Shown: positions 1,174-46,386 of the stretch, piece after piece
Numbering within the stretch: the first letter of the stretch is position 1
How the letters are laid out: the number at the start of each line of letters is the position of its first letter
Assembly: GCA_963842815.1 (NCBI GenBank)
Contig: CAWJHU010000001.1
Span: forward strand, 12,866 to 76,865
Reading direction: 5' to 3'
Length of the DNA: 64,000 bases
Source: Candidatus Nomurabacteria bacterium
GTDB taxonomy: Bacteria; Patescibacteriota; Minisyncoccia; Phycocordibacterales; UBA9973
Position numbers and translations under genes: made by a program
The notes under the pieces: generated by a model
Database searches by the model: none
Seen by the model: only the letters and a program-made list of their open reading frames with translations
What the model was told of the DNA's origin: nothing

Positions 1174-3204
<2,031 letters not shown>

Positions 3205-3223: not shown

Positions 3224-4393
3224 TTATGGCGAAACCGTAACAGTATTTGACCTAAGGCTTTCACTGCCCTGGCCGTTGGGGAAAAAACGGAAATTATAGT
3301 CGCCCGGAGTGCTGGGCATAACAAAAGTACAAGAGCCGGAAGAAATTGCCCCGTCAGCTGGACTTTGAGAACAACCGTTGCCAAAAACCCAGTCGGGGTA
3401 AGGGGGGTCGCTATCAGGCGTAGAAATATTATATTTTCCTATCCAATCCGTAGAAGTTGGGTCGGGAATATCGGCAAAGGTCACTGTAACAGTATCTCCG
3501 GGACTGACGGTGCTGGGGCTGGCTACCAACGTGGGATTATTTTCTGCCGGAGGAGAAGAACTGCTCACCGTAACAGTATTGGAAGCGGTAATTAAAGTAA
3601 GACCATCGTTTTCAAAAATACGGAAATTATAGTCGCCCGGAGTGCTGGGCATAATAAATTTGCAAGAACCGGAAGCAAATGCCGTTCCGTCAACAATTGT
3701 CTGAGAACAATCAGGAGAGCCGTTATCATAAACCCAGGCATAACCATCGGGATAACTGCCATCCGCAAAAGGAGAATTATCTTCCGCAGAAGTGGTATAT
3801 TCCCCTATCCAATCACGAGCAGTCGGTTCTTGAATTCCGGAAAATGTTACCGTAACAGTATCTCCAGGGTTAGCGGCGCTTGGACTGGCTATCAATACCG
3901 GGTTGCTGGAATTGCTGACATAAGTAACCTGCAGTTCGCGTTCAACACGATTGGTGCTGGATGATGCACAAGAGGCATCGCCGATATTGTATCCCTTGGA
4001 GGTAACAACGGTTGTCGGAAAATCGGATTTATCCACAACTACTTTAGCGCAATTTTGTCCATTAGTGCCTAGTCCAGGGACAACGAAACTCCAAAGAGGA
4101 GAAACTCCGGAAAGAGTAATCGGACTTCCGGAACAATTCATGGTTGCCGTCCCGGTAAAAGCATTATCGGCAGGATTTTCTTTGTCATAATAGAGAGCGC
4201 ATTCCGCTCCGGTGTCGGCGGCAAAAAAAGCGTCGTTGGTATCCTTGGCCGAACCGCCAAAATTAATTTCTTTGAGCGCAATACTCATAACGCCCAAGGT
4301 TATTGCCAGAATAATGCTTGAAATCATTACTGCATACAAAAGGGTGAAACCTCTATTCTTTTTTATATCTTTTATTTTCATCATTCTGTCCAA
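3224..4393 (-). CDS. Large pseudopilin / pilus-associated protein with a prepilin-type N-terminus and two internal ~100-aa tandem repeat domains
   Basis: N-terminus 'KKNRGFTLLYAVMISSIILAITLGV' is a class III signal (G|FTLL), though position +5 is Tyr rather than Glu. Two repeats 'NP.L.ASPS...PGDTVTVTF...DWIG.Y......MPSTPGDYNFR.F' are also visible at DNA level (3281-3330 vs 3601-3650). Confidence 0.65.
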   Translation of the reverse strand: MDRMMKIKDIKKNRGFTLLYAVMISSIILAITLGVMSIALKEINFGGSAKDTNDAFFAADTGAECALYYDKENPADNAFTGTATMNCSGSPITLSGVSPLWSFVVPGLGTNGQNCAKVVVDKSDFPTTVVTSKGYNIGDASCASSSTNRVERELQVTYVSNSSNPVLIASPSAANPGDTVTVTFSGIQEPTARDWIGEYTTSAEDNSPFADGSYPDGYAWVYDNGSPDCSQTIVDGTAFASGSCKFIMPSTPGDYNFRIFENDGLTLITASNTVTVSSSSPPAENNPTLVASPSTVSPGDTVTVTFADIPDPTSTDWIGKYNISTPDSDPPYPDWVFGNGCSQSPADGAISSGSCTFVMPSTPGDYNFRFFPNGQGSESLRSNTVTVSP

Positions 4394-4818
4394 TTGAATA
4401 AATCTTCCGAAAAAGTAACGCTAAAATTCCCGGATCCCTGGGTCCAGGAAACGGTTGAATTGATTTTTACTTCATTGGGATTTGAGGGAACCGGCAACAT
4501 TGATATTGTGCGAACGAAATTGGGGTCGGGGCTGGAATAATTTTTATTGGCAGCTAAAAAATTGTTCCAGGTAAGCCCGGTGGTATTGGCAAATAAAACA
4601 TAATTGTCTCTCATGTTTCTGACATATTCAATGCCTCCCTGGGCCAGATATTCGGCTGTAATTTTTGTTTTGGCATAATTTGTATTTGAAATCCCGCTAC
4701 CCAAGATAGACATCAGAGCTACAATGGAGACGGAAAAAATTGAAATGGCTATAAGCGTTTCAACCAGAGTGAAACCGTCGTTCAATTTATTGATTTTTTT
4801 TAAATATCCTTTTTTCAT
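4381..4818 (-). CDS. Type IV pilus minor pilin / pseudopilin
   Basis: N-terminal prepilin signal 'NDGFTLVETLIAISIFSVSIVAL' (G|FTLVE, Glu at +5) followed by a hydrophobic helix. Confidence 0.75.
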   Translation of the reverse strand: MKKGYLKKINKLNDGFTLVETLIAISIFSVSIVALMSILGSGISNTNYAKTKITAEYLAQGGIEYVRNMRDNYVLFANTTGLTWNNFLAANKNYSSPDPNFVRTISMLPVPSNPNEVKINSTVSWTQGSGNFSVTFSEDLFNWTE

Positions 4819-4819
4819 T

Positions 4820-5422
4820 TTAAGGCGAAGTATCTATTAATCTCTGGGATACCGCGGTTTCTAGCGAAAAGGGTGTGCTGATATCTTTATAAGTTATTGC
4901 TCCGGATAGTTTGATTATCGCGAAGGGCTGCAGAGTGTCCGAAGACTCCGCGCCGGTTACCCAAAATCCGGAGTTTGCGTCCAAACTTATTTCACTGGAA
5001 TTCAACTGAGTCCAAGTTGTTCCGCCATTAATGGATTTGCTGATATTATTGGATTCAATTTTATATATCCATTGGTCTTTATTATCTGGATTGCCGGAGG
5101 AAGGTTCAAATGCGATTATAACCCCGCCATTGGAACAACTTAAAGGAGAAAAAGGGATGCCAATATCCGACAAAGATAAATTATTGCTGCAATGATAATC
5201 ATATCCGGTTCGCAAATTTCTAGACATATCTTCCATAATAAAACTTAAATTGTCCATAATGGAGCGCATATCCTGAGATTTTGTATGAATCAAACTGGCG
5301 TTCAAAAGAGCCCCCATGCCAATCATAACCACCACCAAAAAAAGAGAAATGGCTATCATGGTTTCTATGATGGTGAATCCGGCAGTTTTTTTATTATTTT
5401 TTTTTATGTTGAACCTAGGCAT
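4820..5422 (-). CDS. Type IV pilus minor pilin / pseudopilin
   Basis: N-terminal 'KKTAGFTIIETMIAISLFLVVVMIG' (G|FTIIE). Confidence 0.75.
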   Translation of the reverse strand: MPRFNIKKNNKKTAGFTIIETMIAISLFLVVVMIGMGALLNASLIHTKSQDMRSIMDNLSFIMEDMSRNLRTGYDYHCSNNLSLSDIGIPFSPLSCSNGGVIIAFEPSSGNPDNKDQWIYKIESNNISKSINGGTTWTQLNSSEISLDANSGFWVTGAESSDTLQPFAIIKLSGAITYKDISTPFSLETAVSQRLIDTSP

Positions 5423-6805: not shown

Positions 6806-7285
6806 TTAATTACAAGAAAAAGTCGTAGTACTTATGGCACCAGTGGCGGCATAGGGTTCTTGTTTTGACATTCCCCCGCTATCTACGCACCAAGAAGTAT
6901 TGGCTGTTGATTTCAAGCCGACAGCCACAGCCCAGTTGAGGGAAGAATTATAACAGGAACTTTTATTGCCTCTTTTGACCGCTTCCGTTATGGCATTGGA
7001 AATTGTTTTATCCTTGGCCAGCATATTTGACCCTGAAGCGTTATAGAGCGGACAGTTACCAATGCCGTAGGCAGAACCGCCGGCCGGCAAAAATGAATTG
7101 TCATTATTGGAATAAAAAAGTTCCGTTTGACCTCTGATGGTATCCAGATTACTTTTTACAGCCGCATCGGCGCCTTTGTTTCTGGAACTATCCAATACTA
7201 CTAAAGTAACCGAAACCAGGATAGCGATGATGGCTACCACGACCAAAAGTTCAATTAAGGTGAAGCCCTTTTTGAAGTTTTTCAT
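6806..7285 (-). CDS. Type IV pilin (variant paralog of the triplicated major pilin)
   Basis: N-terminal 'MKNFKKGFTLIELLVVVAIIAILVSV' is almost identical to the three copies upstream. The C-terminal domain is different and contains Cys pairs. Confidence 0.85.
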   Translation of the reverse strand: MKNFKKGFTLIELLVVVAIIAILVSVTLVVLDSSRNKGADAAVKSNLDTIRGQTELFYSNNDNSFLPAGGSAYGIGNCPLYNASGSNMLAKDKTISNAITEAVKRGNKSSCYNSSLNWAVAVGLKSTANTSWCVDSGGMSKQEPYAATGAISTTTFSCN

Positions 7286-7350
7286 ATAAAAATAAAATTA
7301 TAATAATACTTTATAACTTATTAATTATAGCATATCCATAAACAAACAAA

Positions 7351-7385
7351 AACCACCCCAAGTGAAAAATGAGGCGGTTTTTGTT
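7351..7385 (-). terminator. Intrinsic terminator hairpin downstream of each pilin copy (also at 7991-8025 and 8631-8665)
   Basis: The minus-strand RNA has aaccgccuca/uggggugguu as a 10-bp stem (with G-U pairs) followed by UUUUU. On the plus strand it is T-rich as well. Confidence 0.6.
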
Positions 7386-7404
7386 TTTCAGAACTAACCA
7401 AAGA

Positions 7405-7869
7405 TTACGGACAAACTGTAACACCAGAACCCAAAGAAGCTGATTCTTTTGAAGCCCCGGTAGAATCTACACACCAACCATCACTGGCCGTGGCAGGACC
7501 CTTCAAAGATGTAATGGCAGCCCAAGCAGTAGCAGAATCATGACAAACAGAAGAGTTTGCGGCACCTGTGGCGCTGTAGGCAAATGCATTAGAGGTAACC
7601 GTGTTTCCTGATGCTAGCTTTTGCGCAGCATTCAATATCATAGGACCGACACCTCCCGTAGCGGTACAAACACTGGCATATGTTTGGCCTGTATCATAGA
7701 AAAGTTCAGCCTGAGCACGGGCACCGGACATAGCAGCCTTAATGGCGGCATCTGAACCTTTTGTTCGGGCACTATTCAATGAAGCCAGAACAACTGAGGC
7801 CAAAATACCGATGATAGCTACCACGACCAAGAGTTCAATTAATGTAAAACCTTTTTTAAAATTCTTCAT
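7405..7869 (-). CDS. pilA: Type IV major pilin, tandem copy 1
   Basis: 154 aa, 'MKNFKKGFTLIELLVVVAIIGILASV...'. Identical to copy 2. Confidence 0.9.
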   Translation of the reverse strand: MKNFKKGFTLIELLVVVAIIGILASVVLASLNSARTKGSDAAIKAAMSGARAQAELFYDTGQTYASVCTATGGVGPMILNAAQKLASGNTVTSNAFAYSATGAANSSVCHDSATAWAAITSLKGPATASDGWCVDSTGASKESASLGSGVTVCP

Positions 7870-8044
7870 AATTTTTTATTCCGCTATGGCGGAACAACTT
7901 AATATTAACTAATAATTTTTTCCCCATCCTTAAATGGGATTTTCGACTTATTTTAAATACGCATATAATTATACCAAATATAAAAACAAAAACCACCCCA
8001 AGTGAAAAATGAGGCGGTTTTTGTTTTTCAGAACTAACCAAAGA

Positions 8045-8509
8045 TTACGGACAAACTGTAACACCAGAACCCAAAGAAGCTGATTCTTTTGAAGCCCCGG
8101 TAGAATCTACACACCAACCATCACTGGCCGTGGCAGGACCCTTCAAAGATGTAATGGCAGCCCAAGCAGTAGCAGAATCATGACAAACAGAAGAGTTTGC
8201 GGCACCTGTGGCGCTGTAGGCAAATGCATTAGAGGTAACCGTGTTTCCTGATGCTAGCTTTTGCGCAGCATTCAATATCATAGGACCGACACCTCCCGTA
8301 GCGGTACAAACACTGGCATATGTTTGGCCTGTATCATAGAAAAGTTCAGCCTGAGCACGGGCACCGGACATAGCAGCCTTAATGGCGGCATCTGAACCTT
8401 TTGTTCGGGCACTATTCAATGAAGCCAGAACAACTGAGGCCAAAATACCGATGATAGCTACCACGACCAAGAGTTCAATTAATGTAAAACCTTTTTTAAA
8501 ATTCTTCAT
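8045..8509 (-). CDS. pilA: Type IV major pilin, tandem copy 2 (identical to copy 1)
   Basis: Protein and DNA identical to 7405..7869, with a 640-bp period. Confidence 0.9.
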   Translation of the reverse strand: MKNFKKGFTLIELLVVVAIIGILASVVLASLNSARTKGSDAAIKAAMSGARAQAELFYDTGQTYASVCTATGGVGPMILNAAQKLASGNTVTSNAFAYSATGAANSSVCHDSATAWAAITSLKGPATASDGWCVDSTGASKESASLGSGVTVCP

Positions 8510-8684
8510 AATTTTTTATTCCGCTATGGCGGAACAACTTAATATTAACTAATAATTTTTTCCCCATCCTTAAATGGGATTTTCGACTTATTTTAAATAC
8601 GCATATAATTATACCAAATATAAAAACAAAAACCACCCCAAGTGAAAAATGAGGCGGTTTTTGTTTTTCAGAACTAACCAAAGA

Positions 8685-9149
8685 TTACGGACAAACTGTA
8701 ACACCAGAACCCAAAGAAGCTGATTCTTTTGAAGCCCCGGTAGAATCTACACACCAACCATCACTGGCCGTGGCAGGACCCTTCAAAGATGTAATGGCAG
8801 CCCAAGCAGTAGCAGAATCATGACAAACAGAAGAGTTTGCGGCACCTGTGGCGCTGTAGGCAAAATCTCCTGTACCTACTGTATTGGTTGCCGCTAGCTT
8901 TTGCGCAGCATTCAATATCATAGGACCGACACCTCCCGTAGCGGTACAAACACTGGCATATGTTTGGCCTGTATCATAGAAAAGTTCAGCCTGAGCACGG
9001 GCACCGGACATAGCAGCCTTAATGGCGGCATCTGAACCTTTTGTTCGGGCACTATTCAATGAAGCCAGAACAACTGAGGCCAAAATACCGATGATAGCTA
9101 CCACGACCAAGAGTTCAATTAATGTAAAACCTTTTTTAAAATTCTTCAT
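8685..9149 (-). CDS. pilA: Type IV major pilin, tandem copy 3 with a mosaic patch (AATNTVGTGDFAYS vs ASGNTVTSNAFAYS)
   Basis: Identical to copies 1 and 2 except for a ~35-nt substituted block at about 8861-8895. Confidence 0.9.
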   Translation of the reverse strand: MKNFKKGFTLIELLVVVAIIGILASVVLASLNSARTKGSDAAIKAAMSGARAQAELFYDTGQTYASVCTATGGVGPMILNAAQKLAATNTVGTGDFAYSATGAANSSVCHDSATAWAAITSLKGPATASDGWCVDSTGASKESASLGSGVTVCP

Positions 9150-9278
9150 AATTTACTTCTCTTACCCCATCCTAATGAGGTAAATTAACATCAATTAATA
9201 ATTTCGACTTATTCTTAATGAGCATATTATAACTTTTATTCTTACGGATGTGCAAAAGAGTTATCCACACCCGATTTT

Positions 9279-21388: not shown

Positions 21389-23116
21389 TTATTGTACCAA
21401 AGCGTACATCTTCGCTTTTGTTTTCGGACCGACAAGACCATCGGCTTTGAGACCATAGGCAGTCTGAAATTTCTTTACAGCAAGGAGAGTAGCCCGGCCG
21501 AATTTAGTGGTTTCTTTACCCAGTGATCCAGGACCCGATTGGGCTACAATATAACCGTTAGCATTTAAAAACTTCTGCAATTCTTTAACTGCTTCGCCTA
21601 TACTTCCATTTTTGAGAGTAATAGCGCCAAAATTATAAATTATTTGTCCTAAGATATTTGAAGGGGTTGCTGTCACCATGATTGTCGTTCCGTTTTCCCC
21701 ACATGGCTGGCCTATGGTAGTGCTAAATAAATTACCGACTGGACATCCGGCAATTGTCGGAGTAGTTGGATTAATTGGAATTGGAGGCAGATTTGAAACA
21801 GGAGAAGGAATTGTTGTGGCCGGGGTGGTTGTTGAGGTTATCGGGGTGGTTGTGGCCGGGGTGGTTGTTGAGGTTATCGGGGTGGTTGTGGGTGCAATAT
21901 CAACATACGGTCTTTTGTGTTTCTGAACTGTCGGCGCTGCTTCAAAGAGCCAACCTGTGTTGCTATCTGCTTCATTGATTGAATTTGCTCCGGCATAAAA
22001 GGTTGTCCCGCCGGTAGCAATCGAATTGTATATATCAAGATAGTCGCTATTTACTATTCCCAAAGATTGAGAAATGGTAAATGGGTTAGTATCATCGTCG
22101 CTATCCAGGGTAATAAGATTATCTGCTGTTCCCGACACATCAAATGTCGTAACGGTTTGAGTGGTTCCATTGGTGAAAATCAAGGAGTGGGCCGCAGTTC
22201 CATCATCTTTGAAATCGTTGAAAGTGTTTGAACCTTGGATATAAATCGTACCTGTCCCCGCTCCGGTAAACCAGATATTGTTGTAGGTTTTGCCAACTTC
22301 GGGTGTCTCATTATTATCAACAAACTGAAAAGTTTTAGAATTTTCGCTTGCATCGGTAAATTTAATGATAGAAGTTTCGGGATATATGTTGACAACTTCA
22401 TTATTATTTTGAGCAACAGTCCAAATTGGAGAGTCATAATAATTATTATCGTTTCCGGTCGCTTCCCAGGTGCCACTCCCCATATAAACTGTTGGGGTAA
22501 GCCCTGTATCAGCATAGAAATAAAAATTGTTTGCCGTGATGTTGTGGTTGTTAGCATTAAAAGTGCCGTTCGCTTGCAAAAATTGTCCCGTGACAGTTAA
22601 GTTGTCTTGTAGTGTCCAACCACCAATACCTACAATTCCTAAGTCAAGAATAATGTCTCCATTGGTGGTTATCGTTTGACCGGGAGTTGTTGCTTGTAGG
22701 CGAAAAGAAGTCGTACCGGCAAAAGTTAAACCACTTTCTAATGCTAAAGAACCCGAAACATTTAAACCATAGTAATTAGCACCATCATCAATGGTATAAC
22801 TATGCCCTACAGTAGAAGTAAAATTATTCATAAGAGCACTAAAATCTAGAGTTATCGTTCCCTCTCCACTGTTAAGTCCGGAATTGGAATCAAAATAAAC
22901 ATTATTGGAAGAATCCGGGGCGCTCGCACCGGAAGAACCTCCTGAAGTTGTGCTCCAATGGTCCGTATCTGACCAACTGCCGGAACCACCTACCCAATAT
23001 CTATTTGTGCCATCTGCTCTTGCAACTTTTGCCCAGTCAGTAAAACCTAAACTGATGGCAAAAATAAAGATTGCCATAATTAGAGCTAAGTTTTTTAATT
23101 TATATAATTTTTTCAT
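21389..23116 (-). CDS. Secreted Thr/Asn/Gly-rich surface protein with Thr-Pro tandem repeats and a C-terminal peptidoglycan-binding (PG_binding_1-like) domain
   Basis: Signal peptide, and a 39-nt DNA tandem repeat at 21822-21899 encoding TPITSTTTPATT x2. The C-terminus 'LQKFLNANGYIVAQSGPGSLGKETTKFGRATLLAVKKFQTAYGLKADGLVGPKT' matches a PGBD. Confidence 0.65.
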   Translation of the reverse strand: MKKLYKLKNLALIMAIFIFAISLGFTDWAKVARADGTNRYWVGGSGSWSDTDHWSTTSGGSSGASAPDSSNNVYFDSNSGLNSGEGTITLDFSALMNNFTSTVGHSYTIDDGANYYGLNVSGSLALESGLTFAGTTSFRLQATTPGQTITTNGDIILDLGIVGIGGWTLQDNLTVTGQFLQANGTFNANNHNITANNFYFYADTGLTPTVYMGSGTWEATGNDNNYYDSPIWTVAQNNNEVVNIYPETSIIKFTDASENSKTFQFVDNNETPEVGKTYNNIWFTGAGTGTIYIQGSNTFNDFKDDGTAAHSLIFTNGTTQTVTTFDVSGTADNLITLDSDDDTNPFTISQSLGIVNSDYLDIYNSIATGGTTFYAGANSINEADSNTGWLFEAAPTVQKHKRPYVDIAPTTTPITSTTTPATTTPITSTTTPATTIPSPVSNLPPIPINPTTPTIAGCPVGNLFSTTIGQPCGENGTTIMVTATPSNILGQIIYNFGAITLKNGSIGEAVKELQKFLNANGYIVAQSGPGSLGKETTKFGRATLLAVKKFQTAYGLKADGLVGPKTKAKMYALVQ

Positions 23117-23162
23117 TGCAACACTAGTATTATACTATTTTTTAAAAAAAAGAAATGCGAAA

Positions 23163-23390
23163 ATTTGCGGTGTATGTTGGACAAAGTTCGAAACTATTTC
23201 GAGCTAAATCCAAATGATTAAAGCTAATGTGTACGCTCGACGTTATTCTTAATTTTAATATATCCACTACGCTCGGCTAATATGCTAATTCAAATGGACT
23301 CGGAAAATGGAAACAAATATTTTGGGGATTAGGATTTCCATTTTCCTCGACTGTATCTTTTGGCGAGATTCCGAATTCTGCCCGCAGGAG
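23163..23390. repeat. Left arm of an ~228-bp near-perfect inverted repeat (partner at 31588-31816)
   Basis: Direct comparison: the reverse complement of 31588-31816 matches 23163-23390 with only a handful of mismatches. Each arm also contains an internal 12-bp hairpin (ggaaaatggaaa...tttccattttcc). Confidence 0.9.
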
Positions 23391-23439
23391 AAATTCAAGT
23401 TCAAAATTCAAAACATTGTCTCGGGCAATTATACCATTT

Positions 23440-23880
23440 TTCTATTTTGGTGGTTACGCAAAGTTTTTGAGGTGCACCCTCGGCATCCGCCTCGGGCGTT
23501 TCCGCTAGGGCTACGAGTGCCTAGATGCCTATGAGCGGGCAAGCAAAATAACCGAACGGCTCAAATACCAGGAAATGAGCCGTTCACTAGATTGCCCGCA
23601 ACTTCTTGGGGAGAGGAAGTTTCCTCTCCCCGGGTCGGGCTCTCCTCGATTACGAGGAGTCTGCCCTCGCCATCCCCACTCTACGTTTTTCAATATTATG
23701 TTTGGTGTGTAGCTTTCGCTGTGAAGATTAGTATTTCAATTCGGGTCAGGCACTCGTCCTTTAGTCATGGACACCCTAGCGGAAATGCCCGAGGCGAAAT
23801 ACTCGTGCTTGCCCCGAGTTTTGCGATTACGCAAAACTCTACCCACCCGTGCGTGCACGCAAAATCACTCCCTTATTTTT
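23440..23880. other. GC-rich, densely self-complementary ~440-bp non-coding region (candidate structured RNA or recombination site)
   Basis: Visibly GC-rich compared with its surroundings. It contains a perfect hairpin ggggagagga-agtt-tcctctcccc, ctcctcg-atta-cgaggag, ttgcg-atta-cgcaa, and a long-range pairing of 23480-23518 with 23746-23795. No convincing ORF is present. Confidence 0.5.
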
Positions 23881-23883
23881 AAA

Positions 23884-24507
23884 TTAAATTCTTGAATACG
23901 AAACCGCATGTCCAGTTTTTCCAACTTGCTTGATTTTATTTTCTTTTTCCAAGATTGAAAGATATCGAGTTGCAGTTGCGTCAGAAATATGCAAAAACTT
24001 TTCTACTTCATCATTCGTGATTTTAGATTTTTTCAGAAACATTGCCATAACTTTATCCAACTTTTTCCTTTTTCGGAATTGAATTGCATTTTTTGCTTTA
24101 TTTAATAATTCAAGAACTTTGTTTTTATTTGGAATTATTACGGGAACAGGTTCAGGTTTGATCGGCTCAGGTTCAGAAGCCAACGGCTCATTTACTGGTA
24201 TTTGAGCCGTTCGGGTTTCAGAAGTTTGCACAGGTTTAGAAATTCCTTCAGCTTTTCCGCCTTCGGCGGGTAATTCTTCGGGTTTTGCTTCTTCAGGGCT
24301 AGGGGTAGAAATAGGCTCATTTTGAGGATTGTCATTATTAAGGGAAACGGGTATATCTGCGTTTTTAGGGGATTCTGGGGCTTCAGGGGGCATATTTGAG
24401 GGTTCAGAACCCTTTGCATCTATGGGTATATCAGCCATAGGCTCTTGAGGGCTTATTGGAATAGAGTTTTCTTCTGAAATTGGGTTTTGGGTAGTTTCAT
24501 CGGGCAT
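23884..24507 (-). CDS. Putative DNA-binding protein with a Pro/Glu-rich disordered N-terminus and a C-terminal winged helix
   Basis: The C-terminus 'ITNDEVEKFLHISDATATRYLSILEKENKIKQVGKTGHAVSY' is wHTH-like. Confidence 0.45.
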   Translation of the reverse strand: MPDETTQNPISEENSIPISPQEPMADIPIDAKGSEPSNMPPEAPESPKNADIPVSLNNDNPQNEPISTPSPEEAKPEELPAEGGKAEGISKPVQTSETRTAQIPVNEPLASEPEPIKPEPVPVIIPNKNKVLELLNKAKNAIQFRKRKKLDKVMAMFLKKSKITNDEVEKFLHISDATATRYLSILEKENKIKQVGKTGHAVSYSRI

Positions 24508-31587: not shown

Positions 31588-31816
31588 CTCCTGCGGGCAG
31601 AATTTGAAATCTCGCCAAAAGACACAGCCGAGGAAAATGGAAATCCTAATCCCCAAAATATTTGTTTCCATTTTCCGAGTCCATTTGAATTAGCATATTA
31701 GCCGAGCGTAGTGGATATATTAAAATTAAGAATAACGTCGAGCGTACACATTAGCTTTAATCATTTGGATTTAGCTCGAAATAGTTTCGAACTTTGTCCA
31801 ACATACACCGCAAATT
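31588..31816. repeat. Right arm of the ~228-bp inverted repeat (partner at 23163-23390)
   Basis: See the left arm. Confidence 0.9.
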
Positions 31817-31832
31817 CTGGGTTAGAGCATTC

Positions 31833-31927
31833 CCGCCAAAAAATGCGTCGGCGCGAAGCGCCGACGATGTGGGCGAATCCGCACCAAACCCAAACCCCGC
31901 CAGGATTTTCCACGCTCCGCGTGGCTC
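31833..31927. repeat. Left arm of the ~95-bp inverted repeat flanking the recombinase gene (partner at 33365-33459)
   Basis: The reverse complement of 31833-31927 is about 90% identical to 33365-33459. Both arms translate to a similar EPRGAWKILAGFGFG...SSALRADAFFGG peptide. Confidence 0.85.
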
Positions 31928-31960: not shown

Positions 31961-33535
31961 TTGAACATCATGAATAATCAAACCAAAAAGTTTTTCATAT
32001 ATACTCGCAAGTCCACAGACGACAAAGACAGACAAGTCCGCAGTATTTCCGATCAACTTTCTGAATTAAAGGAATTAGCATTGAAAGGACAAATTGATGT
32101 TGTGGATGTCTTTGTCGAAAAACAGACAGCCAAAATACCAGGCCGTCCTGTTTTTAACGAAATGATGGAGAGAATGGAGAAAGGCGAAGCACAAGGTATT
32201 TTGGCGTGGCATCCGGACAGACTTGCGAGAAACTCGGTAGATGGCGGAAAGATCATCTACCTCGTTGATACAGGGATAATAAAAGATTTGAAATTCTCAA
32301 CTTTTTGGTTTGACCCCACACCGCAAGGAAAGTTCATGCTATCGATAGCATTTTCGCAATCCAAGTATTATGTGGACAATTTGTCGGAGAATATTAAGCG
32401 AGGACACAGGAACAAACTAAAAGAAGGAATATGGCCTCGAAACGCTCCCATGGGATATTTGAATGATAGCGAGAAAAAAATTATCATTCCTGACCCAGAA
32501 CGCGCTCCATATATCAAGAAAGCGTTCGAGGCATATGCAAGCGGTAAATATACTCTCCGACAAATTAGAGATATGATAACCGGACTTGGATTGCGCTCAA
32601 TGAAAAGTGAAGAACTTTCCGTCTCCGTCATGCACGAAATATTAAGAAATCCAATTTTCTGCGGACTTATGCGGTATGGGGGTGAAATACACGAGGGTAA
32701 ACATGAACCGATTATCACAAAGAAACTTTTTGACCAATGTCAGGAAGTGATGATGCGAAAATCAAAACCAAAAGAAACAGGTTTCAAAACATATTTATAC
32801 CGAGGATTTTTCCGTTGCGGAGAATGTGGTTGCTTCATTACTACAGAAACACAAAAAGGTCATAATTACCTCCGTTGTACTAAACGGAAAAATCCTTGTG
32901 CTCAAAAATATGTTCGTGAAGAAATCATCACTTCCCAGATTAAGGAAAATATACAAAAAATTTCTTTGCCGCTCGATTGGGCAAAATGGATGATTGAAGA
33001 AAACAAAAAGGATCAATCATCCGAAATCCAATCGAGCGAGATTTTTTCTCAATCGACCAAAGACGAAATTTCTCTTTTGGATTCTAAAATCGAGAAGCTG
33101 ATGAATGCGTATTTAGAGAACGCACTTTCACTAGAGGAATACAAGGAAAGTAAAAGTGCGTTAGTTAGCTCTAAACAGCTTCTCAAAGAGAAATTATTAA
33201 GTTTTGAGAAAAAATCTCATAATCGGTTCGAACTTACGGAAAAATTCCTAAAGGACAATATTACCAACGTGGAATTGGCAAACAAAAAAACAAATGAAGA
33301 AAATCTTCATTTGTTCCAAAAAGTCGGTTCGAACTTTAAAATTCATAATCGAACCGTACTTTTTGAGCCACGCGGAGCGTGGAAAATCTTGGCGGGATTT
33401 GGGTTTGGCGGGAATTCAGCCCAATCATCGGCGCTTCGCGCCGACGCATTTTTTGGCGGGGGTATTGATTTCAAATTGTTGCGGAGCCGGGCGGATTCGA
33501 ACCGCCGAGGGGTTTTGAAGCCCCTGCCTCTTTAG
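31961..33535 (+). CDS. Large serine recombinase (resolvase catalytic domain + recombinase domain + zinc ribbon)
   Basis: N-terminal 'FFIYTRKSTDDKDRQ..SISDQ' with the catalytic Ser, 'LAWHPDRLARN', and the zinc ribbon 'CGECGCF...LRCTKRK'. The last ~55 codons read through the inverted-repeat arm and antisense into tRNA-Ser. Confidence 0.85.
   Translation: MNIMNNQTKKFFIYTRKSTDDKDRQVRSISDQLSELKELALKGQIDVVDVFVEKQTAKIPGRPVFNEMMERMEKGEAQGILAWHPDRLARNSVDGGKIIYLVDTGIIKDLKFSTFWFDPTPQGKFMLSIAFSQSKYYVDNLSENIKRGHRNKLKEGIWPRNAPMGYLNDSEKKIIIPDPERAPYIKKAFEAYASGKYTLRQIRDMITGLGLRSMKSEELSVSVMHEILRNPIFCGLMRYGGEIHEGKHEPIITKKLFDQCQEVMMRKSKPKETGFKTYLYRGFFRCGECGCFITTETQKGHNYLRCTKRKNPCAQKYVREEIITSQIKENIQKISLPLDWAKWMIEENKKDQSSEIQSSEIFSQSTKDEISLLDSKIEKLMNAYLENALSLEEYKESKSALVSSKQLLKEKLLSFEKKSHNRFELTEKFLKDNITNVELANKKTNEENLHLFQKVGSNFKIHNRTVLFEPRGAWKILAGFGFGGNSAQSSALRADAFFGGGIDFKLLRSRADSNRRGVLKPLPL
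33365..33459. repeat. Right arm of the ~95-bp inverted repeat (inside the 3' end of the recombinase ORF)
   Basis: See 31833-31927. Confidence 0.85.
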
Positions 33536-33675: not shown

Positions 33676-33762
33676 TTGGAGAGATGGGTGAGCGGTTTAA
33701 ACCAACAGTTTACTAAACTGTCGTCCCCTTAAAAGGACCGCGAGTTCGAATCTCGCTCTCTC
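33676..33762 (+). tRNA. Type II (Ser-like) tRNA with an apparent anticodon ACU (atypical); possibly a variant or pseudo tRNA-Ser
   Basis: Acceptor GGAGAGA/TCTCTCC, 3-bp D stem, anticodon stem ACAGT/ACTGT with loop TTACTAA (U33, A34-C35-U36), long variable arm, T-arm GCGAG-TTCGAAT-CTCGC. Confidence 0.55.
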
Positions 33763-33765
33763 CGC

Positions 33766-36470: not shown

Positions 36471-36543
36471 TGGGCGTGGAGGGATTCGGACCCCCGGCCA
36501 TTCGTGTATAAGACGAACGCTCTACCAACTGAGCTACACGCCC
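36471..36543 (-). tRNA. tRNA-Ile with anticodon UAU (AUA-decoding)
   Basis: Acceptor GGGCGTG/CACGCCC, D-arm GCTC-AGTTGGTA-GAGC, anticodon stem TTCGT/ACGAA with loop CTTATAC (anticodon TAT), 5-nt variable loop, and a T-arm. Confidence 0.7.
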
Positions 36544-38966: not shown

Positions 38967-39374
38967 GAACTTTCTGTGGAGATGCGGGGAATCGAACCCC
39001 GGTGCAAAAGGTTTTTGTAAAGAAATCTACATGTGTAGCGCGTTTTTGTTTTAGATTAAAAAATTTAAAAACGAGCAAAATATTTTTTAATCGATTCCTT
39101 TTGTTTTGGAAAAAAGCCAGGACACTCTTCTCTCCTATCCCGATAATATTATGCCCGGCTCTCATATATCGGAAGTCTATGAGAAGGACATCAGCTTACG
39201 CCGAAGCGGAAACTGAAGCGAAAGAAAAGTTCGCCATACCGAAATATGGAGAAACAATTGCCTTCACTTTATCAGTCAATTTTGCAATTAACATTTGAAC
39301 GAATTTTAACGAGATTACGTTCATGCTCGACATGCATCCTTGCATTAGACCATTTGTCTATGCCTTGCATCCCC
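38967..39374 (-). ncRNA. ssrA: tmRNA (ssrA), ~408 nt, with predicted tag ANFSFASVSASA
   Basis: Minus-strand 5' GGGGAUGC pairs with 3' GCAUCUCC-A, and the T-arm is GGGGUUCGAUUCCCC. The 5' region resembles E. coli tmRNA (AGGAUGCAUGUCGAGC vs AGGUGCAUGCCGAGG), and there is an internal ORF GCG AAC ... GCG UAA. smpB lies immediately upstream. Confidence 0.7.
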
Positions 39375-45202: not shown

Positions 45203-45245
45203 ATTTTTATCTTAGCAAAATACATTTTAAAATACAACCTCATCC

Positions 45246-45315
45246 CCCGCCTTCTCCTGAAAGGAGAAGGGGTCAATTCCCTAGTTCCCCCTCTCCTTTC
45301 AGGAGAGGGTTGGGG
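45246..45315. repeat. Two adjacent inverted copies of the GC-rich palindromic element (ctcctgaaaggag core)
   Basis: 45255-45275 'ttctcctgaaaggagaagggg' and 45283-45318 'ccccctctcctttcaggagagggttggggtgaggtta'. The latter is the reverse complement of the ligA-embedded copy. Confidence 0.75.
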
Positions 45316-45338
45316 TGAGGTTATTGTATAATTGCTAT

Positions 45339-45728
45339 ATGCCCAGAATAATAAACAATTTTAAAAGGAAAGAAATTAGAAAAGAATTGCGAAAAAATCA
45401 AACCCCTCAGGAAACTATTCTTTGGGCTAAACTTAGGGACAATCAAACAAAATATAAATGGAAAAGACAAGTTAGTATCGGTCCTTATATTGCCGATTTT
45501 TACTGTTGGAAAAAACTTTTAGTCGTTGAACTTGATGGAGCGCAACATTTAGACAATAAGGAATATGATAAAGACAGAGAGAAATATTTTTTAAGTCTGG
45601 GGATTAAAACAATAAGATTTTGGAATAATGAAGTTAATACAAATATTGAGGGGGTAATTGAATTTATTATAAAAGAACTAGAAAAACAACCTCACTCTAG
45701 TCCTCTCATGAAAGGAGAGGGGAAATAA
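45339..45728 (+). CDS. DUF559 (Vsr/restriction-endonuclease-fold) protein
   Basis: 'IADFYCWKKLLVVELDGAQHLD...DREKYFLSLGIKTIRFWNNEV'. The C-terminal 'PLMKGEGK' is encoded by another copy of the palindromic element. Confidence 0.65.
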   Translation: MPRIINNFKRKEIRKELRKNQTPQETILWAKLRDNQTKYKWKRQVSIGPYIADFYCWKKLLVVELDGAQHLDNKEYDKDREKYFLSLGIKTIRFWNNEVNTNIEGVIEFIIKELEKQPHSSPLMKGEGK

Positions 45729-45868
45729 ATTCAGATTCCTTCTTTCCTCTTAGGAATTACTAATTAAACATTCCACTAGGTTCGGAGCATTGAAAATAAC
45801 CTCATTTTACAAGGAACTTTTTCCCTAGCATCTTAGGAATTATACATAAAGTTCGAACCTAATCGGTT

Positions 45869-46299: not shown

Positions 46300-46345
46300 G
46301 GGCTAAATCCCCCCTCTCCTTTCAGGAGAGGGTTGGGGTGAGGTT
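46300..46345. repeat. Copy of the GC-rich palindromic element (cccccctctcctttcaggagagggttggggtgaggtta)
   Basis: Near-identical to 45283-45318. Confidence 0.75.
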
Positions 46346-46386
46346 AGATAAGATTGGAGTGAGGTTGAGTACGGGTAAGATAAATT

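What the first reader, a model, noticed from the sequence alone, without database searches (positions are those of the whole stretch)
23440..23880. GC-rich, densely self-complementary ~440-bp non-coding block just inside the left inverted repeat
Within an AT-rich genome this block is conspicuously GC-rich and contains no convincing ORF. It is packed with perfect local hairpins: ggggagagga-agtt-tcctctcccc, ctcctcg-atta-cgaggag, ttgcg-atta-cgcaa, and gtgcgtgcacgc. A long-range pairing also joins 23480-23518 to 23746-23795. It does not match the conserved cores I know for RNase P RNA, SRP RNA, tmRNA, or group I/II intron domain V. It could be a structured ncRNA, a recombination or att-like site of the adjacent element, or a decayed foreign fragment.
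Basis: seen in the sequence. Interest (0 to 1): 0.6.

Follow-up and report, generated by a model that had tools for sequence, protein, structure and literature searches.

The report
Unannotated conserved structured RNA of Parcubacteria
The GC-rich block is a real gene for a roughly 400-nucleotide folded RNA on the minus strand, conserved in more than 200 Parcubacteria (CPR) genome and metagenome contigs, absent from the RNA family database Rfam, and of unknown function.

Summary
Window 23465-23872 is GC-rich (53-57% against 29-41% nearby), has no conserved ORF, and folds far better than shuffles (z about -9.5).

It is not decay, an att site or a known RNA. The same element occurs in 103 GTDB genome loci and at least 120 metagenome loci. 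The named lineages are almost all Parcubacteria/Paceibacterota. No Rfam 15 family matches.

- **Architecture:** a 22-23 bp closing helix with nearly invariant sequence encloses a conserved core. Peripheral arms P5, P6 and P7 change sequence but stay paired.
- **Strand:** G-U pairs outnumber A-C by 72 to 16 and the tetraloops are GNRA, so the RNA reads from the window's minus strand, starting at a conserved GGGAG box.
- **Partner gene:** in 35 of 65 complete loci a winged-helix gene lies directly upstream. A palindromic hairpin (AACGGCUCA-N12-UGAGCCGUU) sits in or beside the RNA and again inside that gene. It tracks the gene's presence (34/35 against 4/21).
- **Copy number:** genomes carry one to three diverged copies, and contigs often break at the element.

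Best reading: a new, lineage-specific, large non-coding RNA, probably acting as a ribonucleoprotein coupled to the winged-helix protein. Its function is unknown.

The parts
23469..23872 (-). Whole conserved structured RNA, about 400 nt. It runs from the GGGAG box to the conserved 3' tail GAUGCCGAGGGUGCACCUC.
   Evidence: Conservation across loci starts at GGGAG and ends after the tail. Fold z = -9.5. No Rfam match.
23868..23872 (-). GGGAG box, the probable 5' end (transcription start or processing site).
   Evidence: A GGGAG-like box (GGGAG in nearly all) was found in 53 of 65 elements, 50-173 nt upstream of the 5' arm. Sequence upstream of it is unrelated and AT-rich.
23849..23860 (-). Alternating purine/pyrimidine tract GCGUGCACGCAC in the 5' leader. 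Relatives have GUGCGCG or GUGUGUGUGCG here.
23816..23839 (-). Optional leader hairpin GAGUUUUGCG-UAAU-CGCAAAACUC, inserted between G tracts.
   Evidence: Present in a subset of relatives with different stem sequences, absent in others.
23774..23796 (-). 5' strand of the closing helix (CGCCUCGGGCAUUUCCGCUAGGG).
   Evidence: 22 pairs are 99% paired across 39 sequences with no compensatory change. Nine pairs are invariant and eight vary on one side only, to G-U.
23488..23510 (-). 3' strand of the closing helix (CCCUAGCGGAAACGCCCGAGGCG).
   Evidence: This sequence supplied the search pattern that found 103 genome loci and at least 120 metagenome loci.
23756..23772 (-). P2 hairpin GUCC-AUGACUAAA-GGAC.
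   Evidence: 97% paired. G-C changes to G-U in 13 of 39 sequences on this strand.
23749..23755 (-). P3 5' strand GAGUGCC, which pairs with 23515-23521.
   Evidence: One pair is U-A in 22 sequences and C-G in 15. Twelve sequences replace two pairs with tandem G-A/A-G.
23515..23521 (-). P3 3' strand GGCACUC.
23666..23742 (-). Conserved core junctions. They include the hairpin with loop UUGMAAUAC, the GNRA mini-hairpin AGC-GAAA-GCU (23711-23720), and the conserved stretch ACACACCAAACAUAAUAUUGAAAAACGUAGAGUGGGGAUGGCGAG.
   Evidence: High column conservation in alignment A2. The loop reads GAAA or GGAA.
23638..23665 (-). P5 variable arm (GGC/GCC base, then CUCCUCG-UAAU-CGAGGAG).
   Evidence: All 10 pairs show changes on both sides across 57 distinct sequences.
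23608..23631 (-). P6 hairpin GGGGAGAGGA-AACU-UCCUCUCCCC.
   Evidence: 99% paired, with double changes at 2-4 pairs.
23535..23599 (-). P7 variable arm. The closing helix GCGGGCAA/UUGCCCGC encloses the palindromic hairpin.
   Evidence: The closing helix has more than 10 different complementary sequences in relatives. Five of six pairs show double changes.
23554..23585 (-). Palindromic hairpin GAACGGCUCA-UUUCCUGGUAUU-UGAGCCGUUC, an accessory insert in P7.
   Evidence: It is a 33-nt, 97% inverted copy of 24182-24214. It is absent from short-P7 relatives and co-occurs with the winged-helix gene, 34/35 against 4/21.
24182..24214 (-). Second copy of the palindromic hairpin, inside the winged-helix ORF, where it encodes the motif TAQIPVNEPL.
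   Evidence: The arms are identical at synonymous codon positions in more than 30 relatives whose proteins are only 54-86% identical.
23884..24507 (-). Partner gene of 207 aa: a disordered Pro/Glu-rich N-terminus, a basic helix, and a C-terminal winged helix.
   Evidence: Pfam HTH_24 and HTH_11 hits are below threshold. 373 homologues were found; the source names given are Parcubacteria lineages or generic. The AlphaFold model has pLDDT 83. The gene lies directly upstream of the RNA in 35 of 65 loci.
23428..23436 (-). Extended -10-like box TGGTATAAT downstream of the RNA, reading away from it into the left repeat arm.
   Evidence: The surrounding TTGCGTAACCACCAAAATAGAAAAATGGTATAAT stretch is identical in L002 and L003, and about 34 loci align over this region. 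The promoter role is inferred only.
23162..23390 (-). Left arm of the 229-nt inverted repeat. This conserved, weakly structured 'tail' follows the RNA in relatives and also occurs on its own.
   Evidence: Fold z = -1.5.

Best explanation
**Shown**
- Window 23469-23872 (minus strand) encodes a member of a previously uncatalogued family of structured non-coding RNAs, about 330-500 nt long, confined as far as sampled to Parcubacteria/Paceibacterota.
- The RNA folds into a multi-arm structure. A 22-23 bp helix of nearly invariant sequence closes a conserved core rich in GNRA loops and conserved junctions. The peripheral arms (leader hairpins, P5, P7) vary in length and sequence but stay paired.
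- Genomes carry one to three diverged copies.

**Inferred**
1. The RNA is made as its own transcript starting at the conserved GGGAG box, just after the stop codon of the upstream gene. Alternatively it is cut out of a read-through transcript.
2. The long perfect closing duplex is the kind of substrate RNase III cuts, so the mature species may be the roughly 265-nt interior.
3. It works in trans as a protein-bound structural RNA (a ribonucleoprotein scaffold or possibly a catalyst), not as a leader for a neighbouring gene.
4. In the sub-lineage that includes this window, the adjacent winged-helix protein is coupled to it through the palindromic hairpin AACGGCUCA-N12-UGAGCCGUU. The hairpin occurs in the RNA's P7 arm and again inside the protein's own coding sequence. 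The most economical reading is that the protein recognises this element in both places, as an RNA hairpin or as a DNA operator, which ties its own synthesis to the RNA. In this window the two copies are also 32/33 complementary, so a direct antisense (kissing-hairpin) contact between the RNA and the mRNA is possible.

The cellular function of the RNA is not known.
For: **Structure**
- z = -9.5 to -9.8.

**Conservation**
- 103 loci in GTDB species genomes and at least 120 in metagenomes share the exact 21-mer of the closing helix. Viral contigs, phage records and plasmids have none.
- BLAST coverage shows a sharply bounded conserved unit.

**Covariation**
- On a structure-blind MAFFT alignment of 39 sequences, 95% of cells pair, against 34-47% when partners are slid. 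Thirteen pairs change on both sides, against 6.6 in shuffles (0 of 500 shuffles reach the observed values).
- On the covariance-model alignment of P5-P6 (57 distinct sequences), 98% of cells pair against 84% shuffled. All 10 P5 pairs change on both sides. The covariation score is 0.242, against 0.08 shuffled and 0.02-0.05 slid.
- The P7 closing helix has more than 10 different complementary sequences.

**Strand**
- The minus strand is more stable in 49 of 65 homologues.
- G-U against A-C is 52:7 and 20:9.
- Loops read GAAA or GGAA on this strand.

**Not a known family**
- Rfam 15 gives nothing at gathering or at E <= 10 on the window, on 18 further loci, or at E <= 1 on 10 diverse loci.
- No description was found in the searchable literature.

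**Independence from neighbours**
- Flanking genes are unrelated between loci apart from the winged-helix gene.

**Link to the winged-helix gene**
- The gene lies directly upstream on the same strand in 35 of 65 loci.
- The hairpin is shared and co-occurs with the gene, 34/35 against 4/21, Fisher p = 1e-9.
- The arm variant GG to GC occurs in both copies of the same locus (L045 and L092).

**True multi-copy**
- Two copies lie on one 813-kb contig and two on one 72-kb contig. Copies within a genome are 67-93% identical.
Against: - **No expression data.** The transcript, its ends and any RNase III cut are inferred.
- **No clear promoter.** The consensus scan found no sigma-70 promoter directly upstream of the RNA in the window. 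A -10-like box precedes GGGAG in only 20 of 53 loci by a strict pattern.
- **The closing helix shows no compensatory change**. By itself it could equally be two DNA sites.
- **Strand evidence is not unique to RNA.** G-U bias and GAAA loops would also fit a strand-specific single-stranded DNA structure.
- **The winged helix looks like a DNA binder by sequence.** It has a DeoR/HTH_11-type S..T..RYL..L motif. Its resemblance to the RNA-binding ribosomal protein eS25 is structural only and weak (Foldseek E about 1e-3).
- **Loop complementarity is not universal.** Loops are same-sense in L063, L099 and L047, which weakens the antisense idea.
- **About 21 loci have no winged-helix gene**, so the protein cannot be an obligatory partner.
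- **The co-occurrence test ignores phylogenetic relatedness.**
Confidence: 0.65

Rival explanations
1. The block is not an independent RNA gene. It is a structured 3' untranslated region or processing signal of the winged-helix mRNA, acting in cis on that mRNA's stability or translation. Long-range pairing of the two hairpin copies would be one route.
For: - It lies on the same strand directly after the gene's stop codon in 35 of 65 loci.
- No consensus promoter lies between gene and block in the window.
- The 33-nt hairpin in the block is complementary to a hairpin 600 nt upstream in the ORF.
Against: - About 21 complete elements with enough upstream sequence have no winged-helix gene and sit after unrelated ORFs, some on the opposite strand.
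- In those loci the conserved core, the GGGAG box and the leader are all still present.
- The shared hairpin is an optional insert, absent from short-P7 members.
- In L002 the winged-helix ORF and a short second ORF are followed by a hairpin plus U run before the core; L010 and L035 show the same hairpin.
Confidence: 0.13
2. The element works at the DNA level. The two invariant 23-bp arms and the palindromes would be protein-binding or recombination sites, or the region would be a strand-specific single-stranded DNA structure such as a single-strand replication origin of an integrated element.
For: - The closing-helix arms are sequence-invariant with no compensatory change.
- The palindromic hairpin has 9-10-bp arms about two helical turns apart, like a dimer operator.
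- The region lies beside a 229-bp inverted repeat and 8 kb from a large serine recombinase.
- The motifs GCGAAAGC and TAGCG recall features of single-strand origins. This point rests on my own knowledge and was not tested.
- Contigs break at the element in 50 of 103 loci, against about 12 expected.
Against: - Interior helices show abundant compensatory change that double-stranded protein sites would not need.
- Strong strand asymmetry: G-U against A-C is 72:16.
- Only one orientation of the interior relative to the flanks was seen in 65 loci.
- Conservation extends beyond the arms on both sides.
- No replication-initiator, relaxase or transposase family recurs among the neighbouring ORFs.
- No match in plasmids, phages or viral contigs.
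- Copies within a genome are diverged paralogues.
Confidence: 0.08
3. It is a highly diverged version of a universal housekeeping RNA (RNase P RNA, 6S RNA or long SRP RNA) that Rfam models fail to recognise in CPR bacteria.
For: - Size and GC content fit.
- CPR RNase P RNAs are known to fall below Rfam thresholds (PMC8172020).
- Sequence conservation is very high across the class, and contigs break at the element as they do at rRNA genes.
Against: - No RNase P, SRP or 6S hit even at E <= 10 on a 1-kb slice, where the filters are laxest.
- The P4 strands of RNase P (GGAAAGUCC and ACAGAA..GGCUUA) are absent on either strand by direct reading.
- PMC8172020 reports that RF00010 still finds RNase P RNA in all their circular CPR genomes at low threshold.
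- One to three diverged copies per genome, including two on one contig, is not expected for RNase P or SRP RNA.
- The architecture is a multi-arm junction closed by a 23-bp perfect helix. It is not a 6S-like rod with a central bubble.
Confidence: 0.04
4. It is a non-autonomous mobile repeat (MITE-like, with terminal inverted repeats), or a decaying fragment carried by the neighbouring element, and has no function of its own.
For: - 23-bp inverted arms.
- Multi-copy in some genomes.
- Variable neighbourhoods rich in restriction-modification, toxin-antitoxin and reverse-transcriptase genes.
- Contig breaks at the element.
Against: - Copies in one genome are 67-93% identical, not near-identical.
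- The arms are internal, with conserved leader and tail lying outside them.
- The core is under purifying selection with compensatory changes across lineages from Nomurabacteria to Kaiserbacteria.
- No transposase is associated.
Confidence: 0.03

Closest known systems
Large, ornate, lineage-restricted bacterial ncRNAs of unknown or recently emerging function (OLE, GOLLD, ROOL, raiA, HEARO/omega RNA)
   Same: - Several hundred nucleotides long.
- GC-rich relative to the genome.
- Many helices with GNRA loops and conserved junctions.
- Variable peripheral arms.
- Restricted to one lineage.
- Sometimes multi-copy and sitting in variable genome regions.
- Sometimes paired with a dedicated protein (OLE with OapA, HEARO with IscB).
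   Different: - No sequence or structure match to any of them (Rfam 15).
- A different host lineage (Parcubacteria).
- A 22-23 bp closing helix of invariant sequence.
- The partner is a small winged-helix protein, not a membrane protein or a nuclease.
RNase III processing stems that bracket rRNAs and some other stable RNAs
   Same: The 5' and 3' flanks form a long, perfect duplex of more than 20 bp enclosing a structured RNA. That is the classic RNase III substrate geometry (established knowledge; cleavage not tested here).
   Different: The enclosed RNA is not rRNA, with no rRNA hit in Rfam. The stem sequence is invariant across the class, which processing alone does not require.
Feedback control in which an RNA-binding protein recognises the same motif in its target RNA and in its own mRNA (ribosomal proteins L1, S8, S15 and others)
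   Same: One hairpin occurs both in the structural RNA and in the mRNA of the adjacent protein gene. Arm variants change together in both copies.
   Different: - Binding is untested.
- By sequence the protein looks like a DNA-binding winged helix.
- The mRNA copy lies inside the coding region rather than at the ribosome-binding site.
- The hairpin is optional in the RNA family.
Antisense kissing-hairpin control (CopA/CopT, RNA I/RNA II)
   Same: In this window and in at least 13 relatives, the two hairpins have identical stems and complementary 12-nt loops. The RNA could therefore pair with the upstream mRNA over about 30 nt.
   Different: Both partners lie on the same strand and locus rather than overlapping in antisense. 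Loop complementarity is missing in several loci. The hairpin is a small accessory part of a much larger RNA.
Bacterial RNase P RNA (type A)
   Same: About 400 nt, GC-rich, multi-helix, with conserved single-stranded core stretches and variable peripheral helices.
   Different: Lacks the conserved P4 sequences, gives no RF00010 signal, is multi-copy, and has a different topology.

Membership tests
Any Rfam 15 family (4227 covariance models) | Score at or above the curated gathering threshold, or at least a credible sub-threshold match. | tested here: not met
   - No hit in 23100-24100 at gathering.
- At E <= 10 only noise appears: snoRNA models, and a 24-nt hairpin match to TD-2.
- Nothing at the element in 18 further loci or in 10 diverse loci at E <= 1.
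RNase P RNA | Conserved P4 strands (GGAAAGUCC and ACAGAA..GGCUUA) and a match to RF00010/RF00011. | tested here: not met
   Neither motif is present on either strand. There is no RF00010 hit even at E <= 10.
RNase P RNA | A single essential copy per genome. | tested here: not met
   Two copies lie on one 813-kb contig and two on one 72-kb contig. At least 11 genomes have 2-3 loci.
tmRNA, SRP RNA and 6S RNA | A match to the family model and the family's characteristic fold (tRNA-like domain plus tag; helix 8 motif; rod with central bubble). | tested here: not met
   A canonical tmRNA is elsewhere in the window at 38974-39374 (133.6 bits). There are no SRP or 6S hits at the block. The predicted fold is a multi-arm junction.
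Group I or group II intron | A match to intron models, and insertion in a host gene with splice boundaries. | tested here: not met
   No Rfam intron hit. The flanks are intergenic and differ between loci.
Riboswitch or cis-regulatory leader | Lies upstream of, and in sense with, a recurring family of regulated genes. | tested here: not met
   Downstream ORFs are unrelated between loci and lie on either strand.
MITE or insertion-sequence-like mobile repeat | Inverted repeats at the termini and near-identical copies within a genome. | tested here: not met
   Conserved leader and tail extend beyond the arms. Copies within a genome are 67-93% identical. Target-site duplications were not examined.
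Invertible DNA switch (inverton) | The interior is found in both orientations between the inverted repeats. | tested here: not met
   All 65 complete elements have the same interior orientation relative to the asymmetric flanks. Read-level population data were not available.
Retron or reverse-transcriptase-associated ncRNA | An adjacent reverse-transcriptase gene. | tested here: not met
   A reverse-transcriptase-like ORF lies within three ORFs in only 2 loci, L028 and L051, and there is none in the window.
Winged-helix transcription regulators (Pfam HTH_24 / HTH_11), for the partner protein | A Pfam score at or above the gathering threshold. | tested here: inconclusive
   - HTH_24 scores 17.6 bits against a cut-off of 21.9. 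HTH_11 scores 16.9 against 25.
- Several homologues carry precomputed PF13412.
- The AlphaFold model shows a winged helix.
Ribosomal protein eS25-like RNA-binding winged helix, for the partner protein | Significant sequence or fold similarity to eS25. | tested here: inconclusive
   - The top Foldseek PDB hits are eS25 chains (rmsd 2-2.5 Å over about 60 residues, 24-30% identity), but E is only about 1e-3. ArsR/MarR repressors score equally.
- The sequence profile finds no eS25 at E <= 10.
RNase III-processed stable RNA | Cleavage within the closing duplex in vivo or in vitro. | not testable with these tools
   Only the substrate-like geometry is shown: a 23-bp duplex with one mismatch in the window and 99% pairing overall.

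The most novel reading that the evidence does not exclude
This is the founding example of a class-wide Parcubacteria RNA that forms a dedicated ribonucleoprotein, or a self-assembling or catalytic RNA particle comparable to OLE, GOLLD or ROOL. A winged-helix protein would read the same hairpin in the RNA and in its own mRNA. The invariant 23-bp duplex would be a specific recognition or assembly module rather than a mere processing stem. If so, it would be a new functional RNA class in the least-understood major bacterial radiation.
Probability: 0.3. Interest if true: 0.85.

Novelty: new member of a known kind. Interest (0 to 1): 0.72.

Why it matters
- **Few such RNAs are known.** Large, highly conserved structured RNAs are rare. 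Most known ones turned out to be ribozymes, ribonucleoprotein cores or guide scaffolds.
- **The host group is poorly understood.** CPR/Parcubacteria are uncultured, genome-reduced episymbionts. Their non-coding RNA repertoire is essentially unexplored, and standard Rfam annotation leaves this locus blank.
- **Retention implies function.** A GC-rich RNA of about 400 nt, kept in one to three copies by organisms with genomes under 1 Mb, with covarying arms, an invariant duplex and a linked protein, is unlikely to be dispensable.
- **Practical consequences.** The element breaks metagenome assemblies: half of the loci end within 500 nt of it. A covariance model for it would improve annotation of Parcubacteria genomes assembled from metagenomes.
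- **A tractable experiment.** The shared hairpin between the RNA and the partner gene offers a direct test of protein-RNA or RNA-RNA feedback.

Tried and rejected
**Known RNA families.** Four Rfam searches found nothing. RNase P, SRP and 6S motifs were read by eye on both strands and are absent.

**Phage, plasmid or viral origin.** There are no blastn hits in phages or plasmids and no pattern hit in viral contigs.

**Source contig.** An exact-protein look-up for the winged-helix protein found no record.

**Link to rRNA or tRNA operons as the cause of contig breaks.** No rRNA lies nearby. tRNAs follow the element in only two of the 18 loci scanned, L014 and L025.

**Protein coding.** A 52-aa gene called at this position in L002 is interrupted by an early stop when the same frame is read by hand in the window. 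The tail has frame-breaking indels.

**DNA inversion of the interior.** Only one orientation was seen.

**The 'tail' (left repeat arm) as part of the structured RNA.** It is not significantly structured (z = -1.5), and it occurs independently of the RNA.

**Trans targets in the window.** The only complementarity of 12 nt or more outside the locus is the hairpin copy in the upstream ORF.

**Defence-system membership of the partner protein.** PADLOC gives only a weak match to the C-terminal winged helix of SoFic. PHROGs gives a generic 'transcriptional regulator'.

**A terminal helix pairing the GGGAG leader with the 3' flank.** Two different registers can be drawn in different subfamilies. Neither is consistent, so this is left open.

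**Technical limits.** Structure-aware realignment with mafft-qinsi was unavailable. A full-length covariance model was not attempted, because the tool's stated timings put a model of about 330 positions past its 6-minute calibration limit. A 76-position model of P5-P6 was used instead.

**Literature.** Five searches found no description of this RNA.
Full report
**1. What is in the window**

Positions 23117-23883 form a 767-bp gap between two minus-strand ORFs. One is a 575-aa protein with a peptidoglycan-binding domain (21389-23116). The other is a 207-aa protein (23884-24507).

Within the gap, 100-nt windows between 23450 and 23850 have 44-57% GC (mostly 53-57%). The flanks have 20-41%.

That pairing is in fact a 23-bp helix (23488-23510 with 23774-23796) stacked on a 7-bp helix (23515-23521 with 23749-23755).

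The region folds about 55-60 kcal/mol better than dinucleotide shuffles on either strand (z -9.8 and -9.7). The full 411-nt element gives z = -9.5.

**2. It is conserved, and it is not a known RNA**

Rfam 15 finds a tmRNA and three tRNAs in the window but nothing at the block. A permissive scan of a 1-kb slice (E <= 10) returns only noise. Phage, plasmid and viral collections have no match.

Homologues of the upstream 207-aa protein number 373; the source names given are Parcubacteria lineages or generic. That search led to three further distinct loci. In two of them (L002/L003 and L004) the downstream non-coding stretch aligned with the block.

The most conserved 21-mer, CCTAGCGGAAAYGCCCGAGGC, is one strand of the closing helix.

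Named hosts are Nomurabacteria, Kaiserbacteria, Yonathbacteria, Taylorbacteria, Zambryskibacteria, Lloydbacteria, Paceibacterota and Minisyncoccia. A batch of third-party assemblies is labelled 'uncultured Candidatus Saccharibacteria'. One of these is the same contig as locus L004, which clearly belongs to the family, so I treat that label as coarse. Four records with unrelated names (Woesearchaeota, Burkholderiaceae, Thermodesulfovibrionales, Peribacteria) are probably binning errors or, for L009, a bare 21-mer match.

Rfam also finds nothing at the element in 18 further loci, or in 10 diverse loci at E <= 1. Five literature searches found no description. The one relevant paper (PMC8172020) reports that CPR RNase P RNAs are diverged but still detectable with RF00010.

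**3. Extent and strand**

BLAST coverage over the fetched loci defines a sharply bounded conserved unit from 24510 to 23160. It contains four parts:
- the 207-aa gene;
- the structured block;
- a short stretch with an extended -10-like box (TGGTATAAT, 23428-23436);
- a 'tail' of about 230 nt, which is the left arm of the window's inverted repeat.

The structured element itself begins at a conserved GGGAG box (23868-23872). Upstream of the box the sequence is unrelated and AT-rich; a GGGAG-like box was located in 53 of 65 loci. The element ends after the conserved tail GAUGCCGAGGGUGCACCUC, at about 23469.

Three observations put the RNA on the window's minus strand, the same strand as the upstream gene:
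- That strand folds better in 49 of 65 homologues, by a mean of 5.1 kcal/mol.
- In paired columns, G-U outnumbers A-C by 52:7 in alignment A2 and 20:9 in alignment A5.
- The mini-hairpin loop reads GAAA or GGAA (GNRA) on this strand.

**4. Architecture and covariation**

On a plain MAFFT alignment of 39 homologues (A2, not fitted to any structure), a hand-specified set of 52 pairs in six helices is 95% paired. When the partners are slid by 1-3 columns, only 34-47% pair. Thirteen pairs show changes on both sides, against 6.6 in column shuffles. No shuffle out of 500 reaches the observed values.

A 76-position covariance model of arms P5-P6 (window 23602-23677) finds 68 matches. On its alignment:
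- 98% of cells pair, against 84% shuffled.
- All ten P5 pairs change on both sides.
- The covariation score is 0.242, against 0.08 shuffled and 0.02-0.05 slid.

That alignment leans towards the model's structure, which is why the MAFFT-only count matters.

P5 stems include CUCCUCG/CGAGGAG, CUCCGAC/GUCGGAG, CUGCUGG/CCAGCAG, ACACUCUCGG/CCGAGAGUGU and others. The P7 closing helix takes more than ten complementary forms, among them GCGGGC, GUGUGC, GUGAGC, GCAGGC, GCGGAA, GUUCUGC, AUCCUGC and GCGGUGC.

The 22-bp closing helix behaves differently. It is 99% paired but has no compensatory change at all. Nine pairs are invariant and eight vary only to G-U. Its sequence, not just its pairing, is under selection.

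In 12 sequences, two pairs of P3 are replaced by tandem G-A/A-G.

A conserved core with variable, covarying peripheral arms is the signature of a functional structured RNA.

**5. The partner gene and the shared hairpin**

In 35 of 65 complete elements, a homologue of the 207-aa protein ends 54-921 nt upstream on the same strand. In about 21 others with enough upstream sequence, the neighbour is unrelated. No other neighbouring family recurs. Neighbourhoods often hold restriction-modification, toxin-antitoxin or reverse-transcriptase genes.

The protein has three parts: a disordered Pro/Glu-rich N-terminus, a basic helix and a C-terminal winged helix.
- By sequence it resembles DeoR/HTH_11-type DNA binders, but below Pfam thresholds.
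- By fold, the top PDB matches are ribosomal protein eS25 (rmsd 2-2.5 Å, 24-30% identity) together with ArsR/MarR repressors, all at E about 1e-3.

So DNA binding against RNA binding is undecided.

A palindromic hairpin, AACGGCUCA-N(11-15)-UGAGCCGUU, occurs in the RNA's P7 arm (window 23554-23585). In one subfamily it lies just 3' of the RNA instead. It occurs again inside the protein's coding sequence (24182-24214), where it encodes the conserved motif TAQ..EPL.
- The arms are identical even at synonymous codon positions in more than 30 relatives whose proteins are 54-86% identical. The constraint therefore acts on the nucleic acid.
- The arm variant GG to GC appears in both copies of the same locus (L045 and L092).
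- The hairpin in or near the RNA co-occurs with the gene: 34/35 against 4/21 (Fisher p = 1e-9, not corrected for relatedness).
- Short-P7 family members lack the hairpin.

The hairpin is thus an accessory module tied to the protein. The core RNA stands on its own.

In the window, and in at least 13 relatives, the two loops are complementary (32 of 33 positions here). In others they are same-sense. An antisense contact is therefore possible but not general.

**6. Copy number and assembly breaks**

At least 11 genomes have 2-3 loci. Two copies lie on a single 813-kb contig and two on a single 72-kb contig. Copies within a genome are 67-93% identical, so they are paralogues rather than transposon copies.

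Fifty of 103 loci have the arm within 500 nt of a contig end, against about 12 expected. Fifteen lie within 50 nt, against about 1.2 expected. I attribute this to the stretches that are nearly identical between paralogues and between co-occurring species, as happens with rRNA genes. This is an inference.

**7. Interpretation**

*Shown:* a new, conserved, covarying structured RNA family on the minus strand. It is genetically linked to a winged-helix gene through adjacency and a shared hairpin.

*Inferred:*
- it has its own transcript starting at GGGAG;
- RNase III may cut the closing duplex;
- it acts in trans as a protein-bound RNA;
- the winged-helix protein recognises the hairpin in both places, as RNA or as a DNA operator.

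*Rivals:*
- A cis-acting 3' untranslated region of the upstream mRNA. The 21 loci without that gene argue against it.
- A DNA-level site or single-stranded DNA structure. Interior covariation, strand asymmetry, the single orientation seen, and the absence of a recurring replication or transposition gene family among the neighbours argue against it.
- A diverged housekeeping RNA. Missing core motifs and multiple copies argue against it.
- A MITE or decaying fragment. Diverged paralogues and purifying selection argue against it.

**8. Comparison and novelty**

The RNA behaves like the large, ornate, lineage-restricted bacterial RNAs (OLE, GOLLD, ROOL, raiA, HEARO). It matches none of them and comes from a different radiation. 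I file it as a new member of that kind.

Its function is unknown. The invariant duplex and the RNA-mRNA shared hairpin are the most distinctive features and the most readily testable.

**9. The inverted repeat**

The left arm (23162-23390) is homologous to the sequence that follows the RNA in relatives such as L104, L064, L084, L052, L026 and L025. It also occurs independently of the RNA.

In the window, in L023 and in L093, an inverted second copy lies 3-8 kb away on the far side of the winged-helix gene and variable cargo. In the window the cargo is Zur-ZnuABC, LexA, a DNA methylase and a TdeIII-type restriction enzyme. A large serine recombinase gene sits just outside the right arm.

This looks like a separate feature, an invertible or composite segment. 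I did not resolve it.

Noticed in passing
window 23162-23390 and 31588-31816: A 229-nt, 98% complementary inverted repeat flanks an 8.2-kb segment. The segment holds the winged-helix gene plus the RNA, Zur-ZnuABC, LexA, an N6/N4 methylase and a TdeIII-type restriction enzyme. A large serine recombinase (31961-33535) lies just outside the right arm. An extended -10-like box (23428-23436) inside the segment reads outward through the left arm. An inverted second copy of the repeat sequence, on the far side of the winged-helix gene and with different cargo lengths, recurs in L023 and L093. This may be an invertible or composite element.
   Followed up: partly
window 31832-31927 and 33365-33460: A second inverted repeat (96 nt, 90% complementary). 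Its arms bracket most of the serine recombinase gene, and the right arm lies inside the 3' end of the ORF.
   Followed up: no
L005-L107 (contig ends): Half of the genome loci (50 of 103) have the RNA within 500 nt of a contig end, against about 12 expected. The element is a hotspot for assembly breaks in Parcubacteria genomes assembled from metagenomes.
   Followed up: yes
window 7161-9154: Three to four tandem copies of a 640-bp unit (93-100% identical), each holding a 154-aa ORF (7405-7869, 8045-8509, 8685-9149, and a 159-aa relative at 6806-7285).
   Followed up: no
window 2856-2892, 45237-45280, 45287-45323, 45688-45731, 46310-46346: A dispersed family of hairpins, CCCTCTCC-loop-GGAGAGGG with GGGGTGAGGTT flanks, occurs in both orientations. 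They may be REP-like elements or terminators. The stem resembles P6 of the RNA but with the strands swapped.
   Followed up: no
L001 about 4300-4920 (contig JBAZVG010000001.1): A third paralogue of the winged-helix gene lies on the same 813-kb contig as two complete RNA copies. It is followed only by the RNA's 5' leader (GGGAG, a hairpin, then UUUUGUGCGCGAAUGG) and then by unrelated sequence and a restriction-modification system. It may be a degenerate copy.
   Followed up: partly
L086 2223-3140: One family member has 874 nt between the two arms of the closing helix, against 198-395 nt in all others. This suggests an insertion inside the RNA gene.
   Followed up: no
window 23884-24507 (protein model of residues about 118-207): The best structural matches of the winged-helix domain in the PDB are eukaryotic and archaeal ribosomal protein eS25 (24-30% identity, rmsd 2-2.5 Å). 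Bacterial repressors follow them. The scores are weak (E about 1e-3).
   Followed up: partly
window 38974-39374 (minus strand): A canonical tmRNA gene (Rfam RF00023, 133.6 bits). tRNAs lie at 108-194, 33678-33764 and 36471-36543.
   Followed up: no
L014 1867-1940; L025 5759-6057: In two relatives, tRNA genes lie about 300-400 nt downstream of the RNA on the same strand. In L025 they follow the stretch that aligns with the window's -10-like box region.
   Followed up: no
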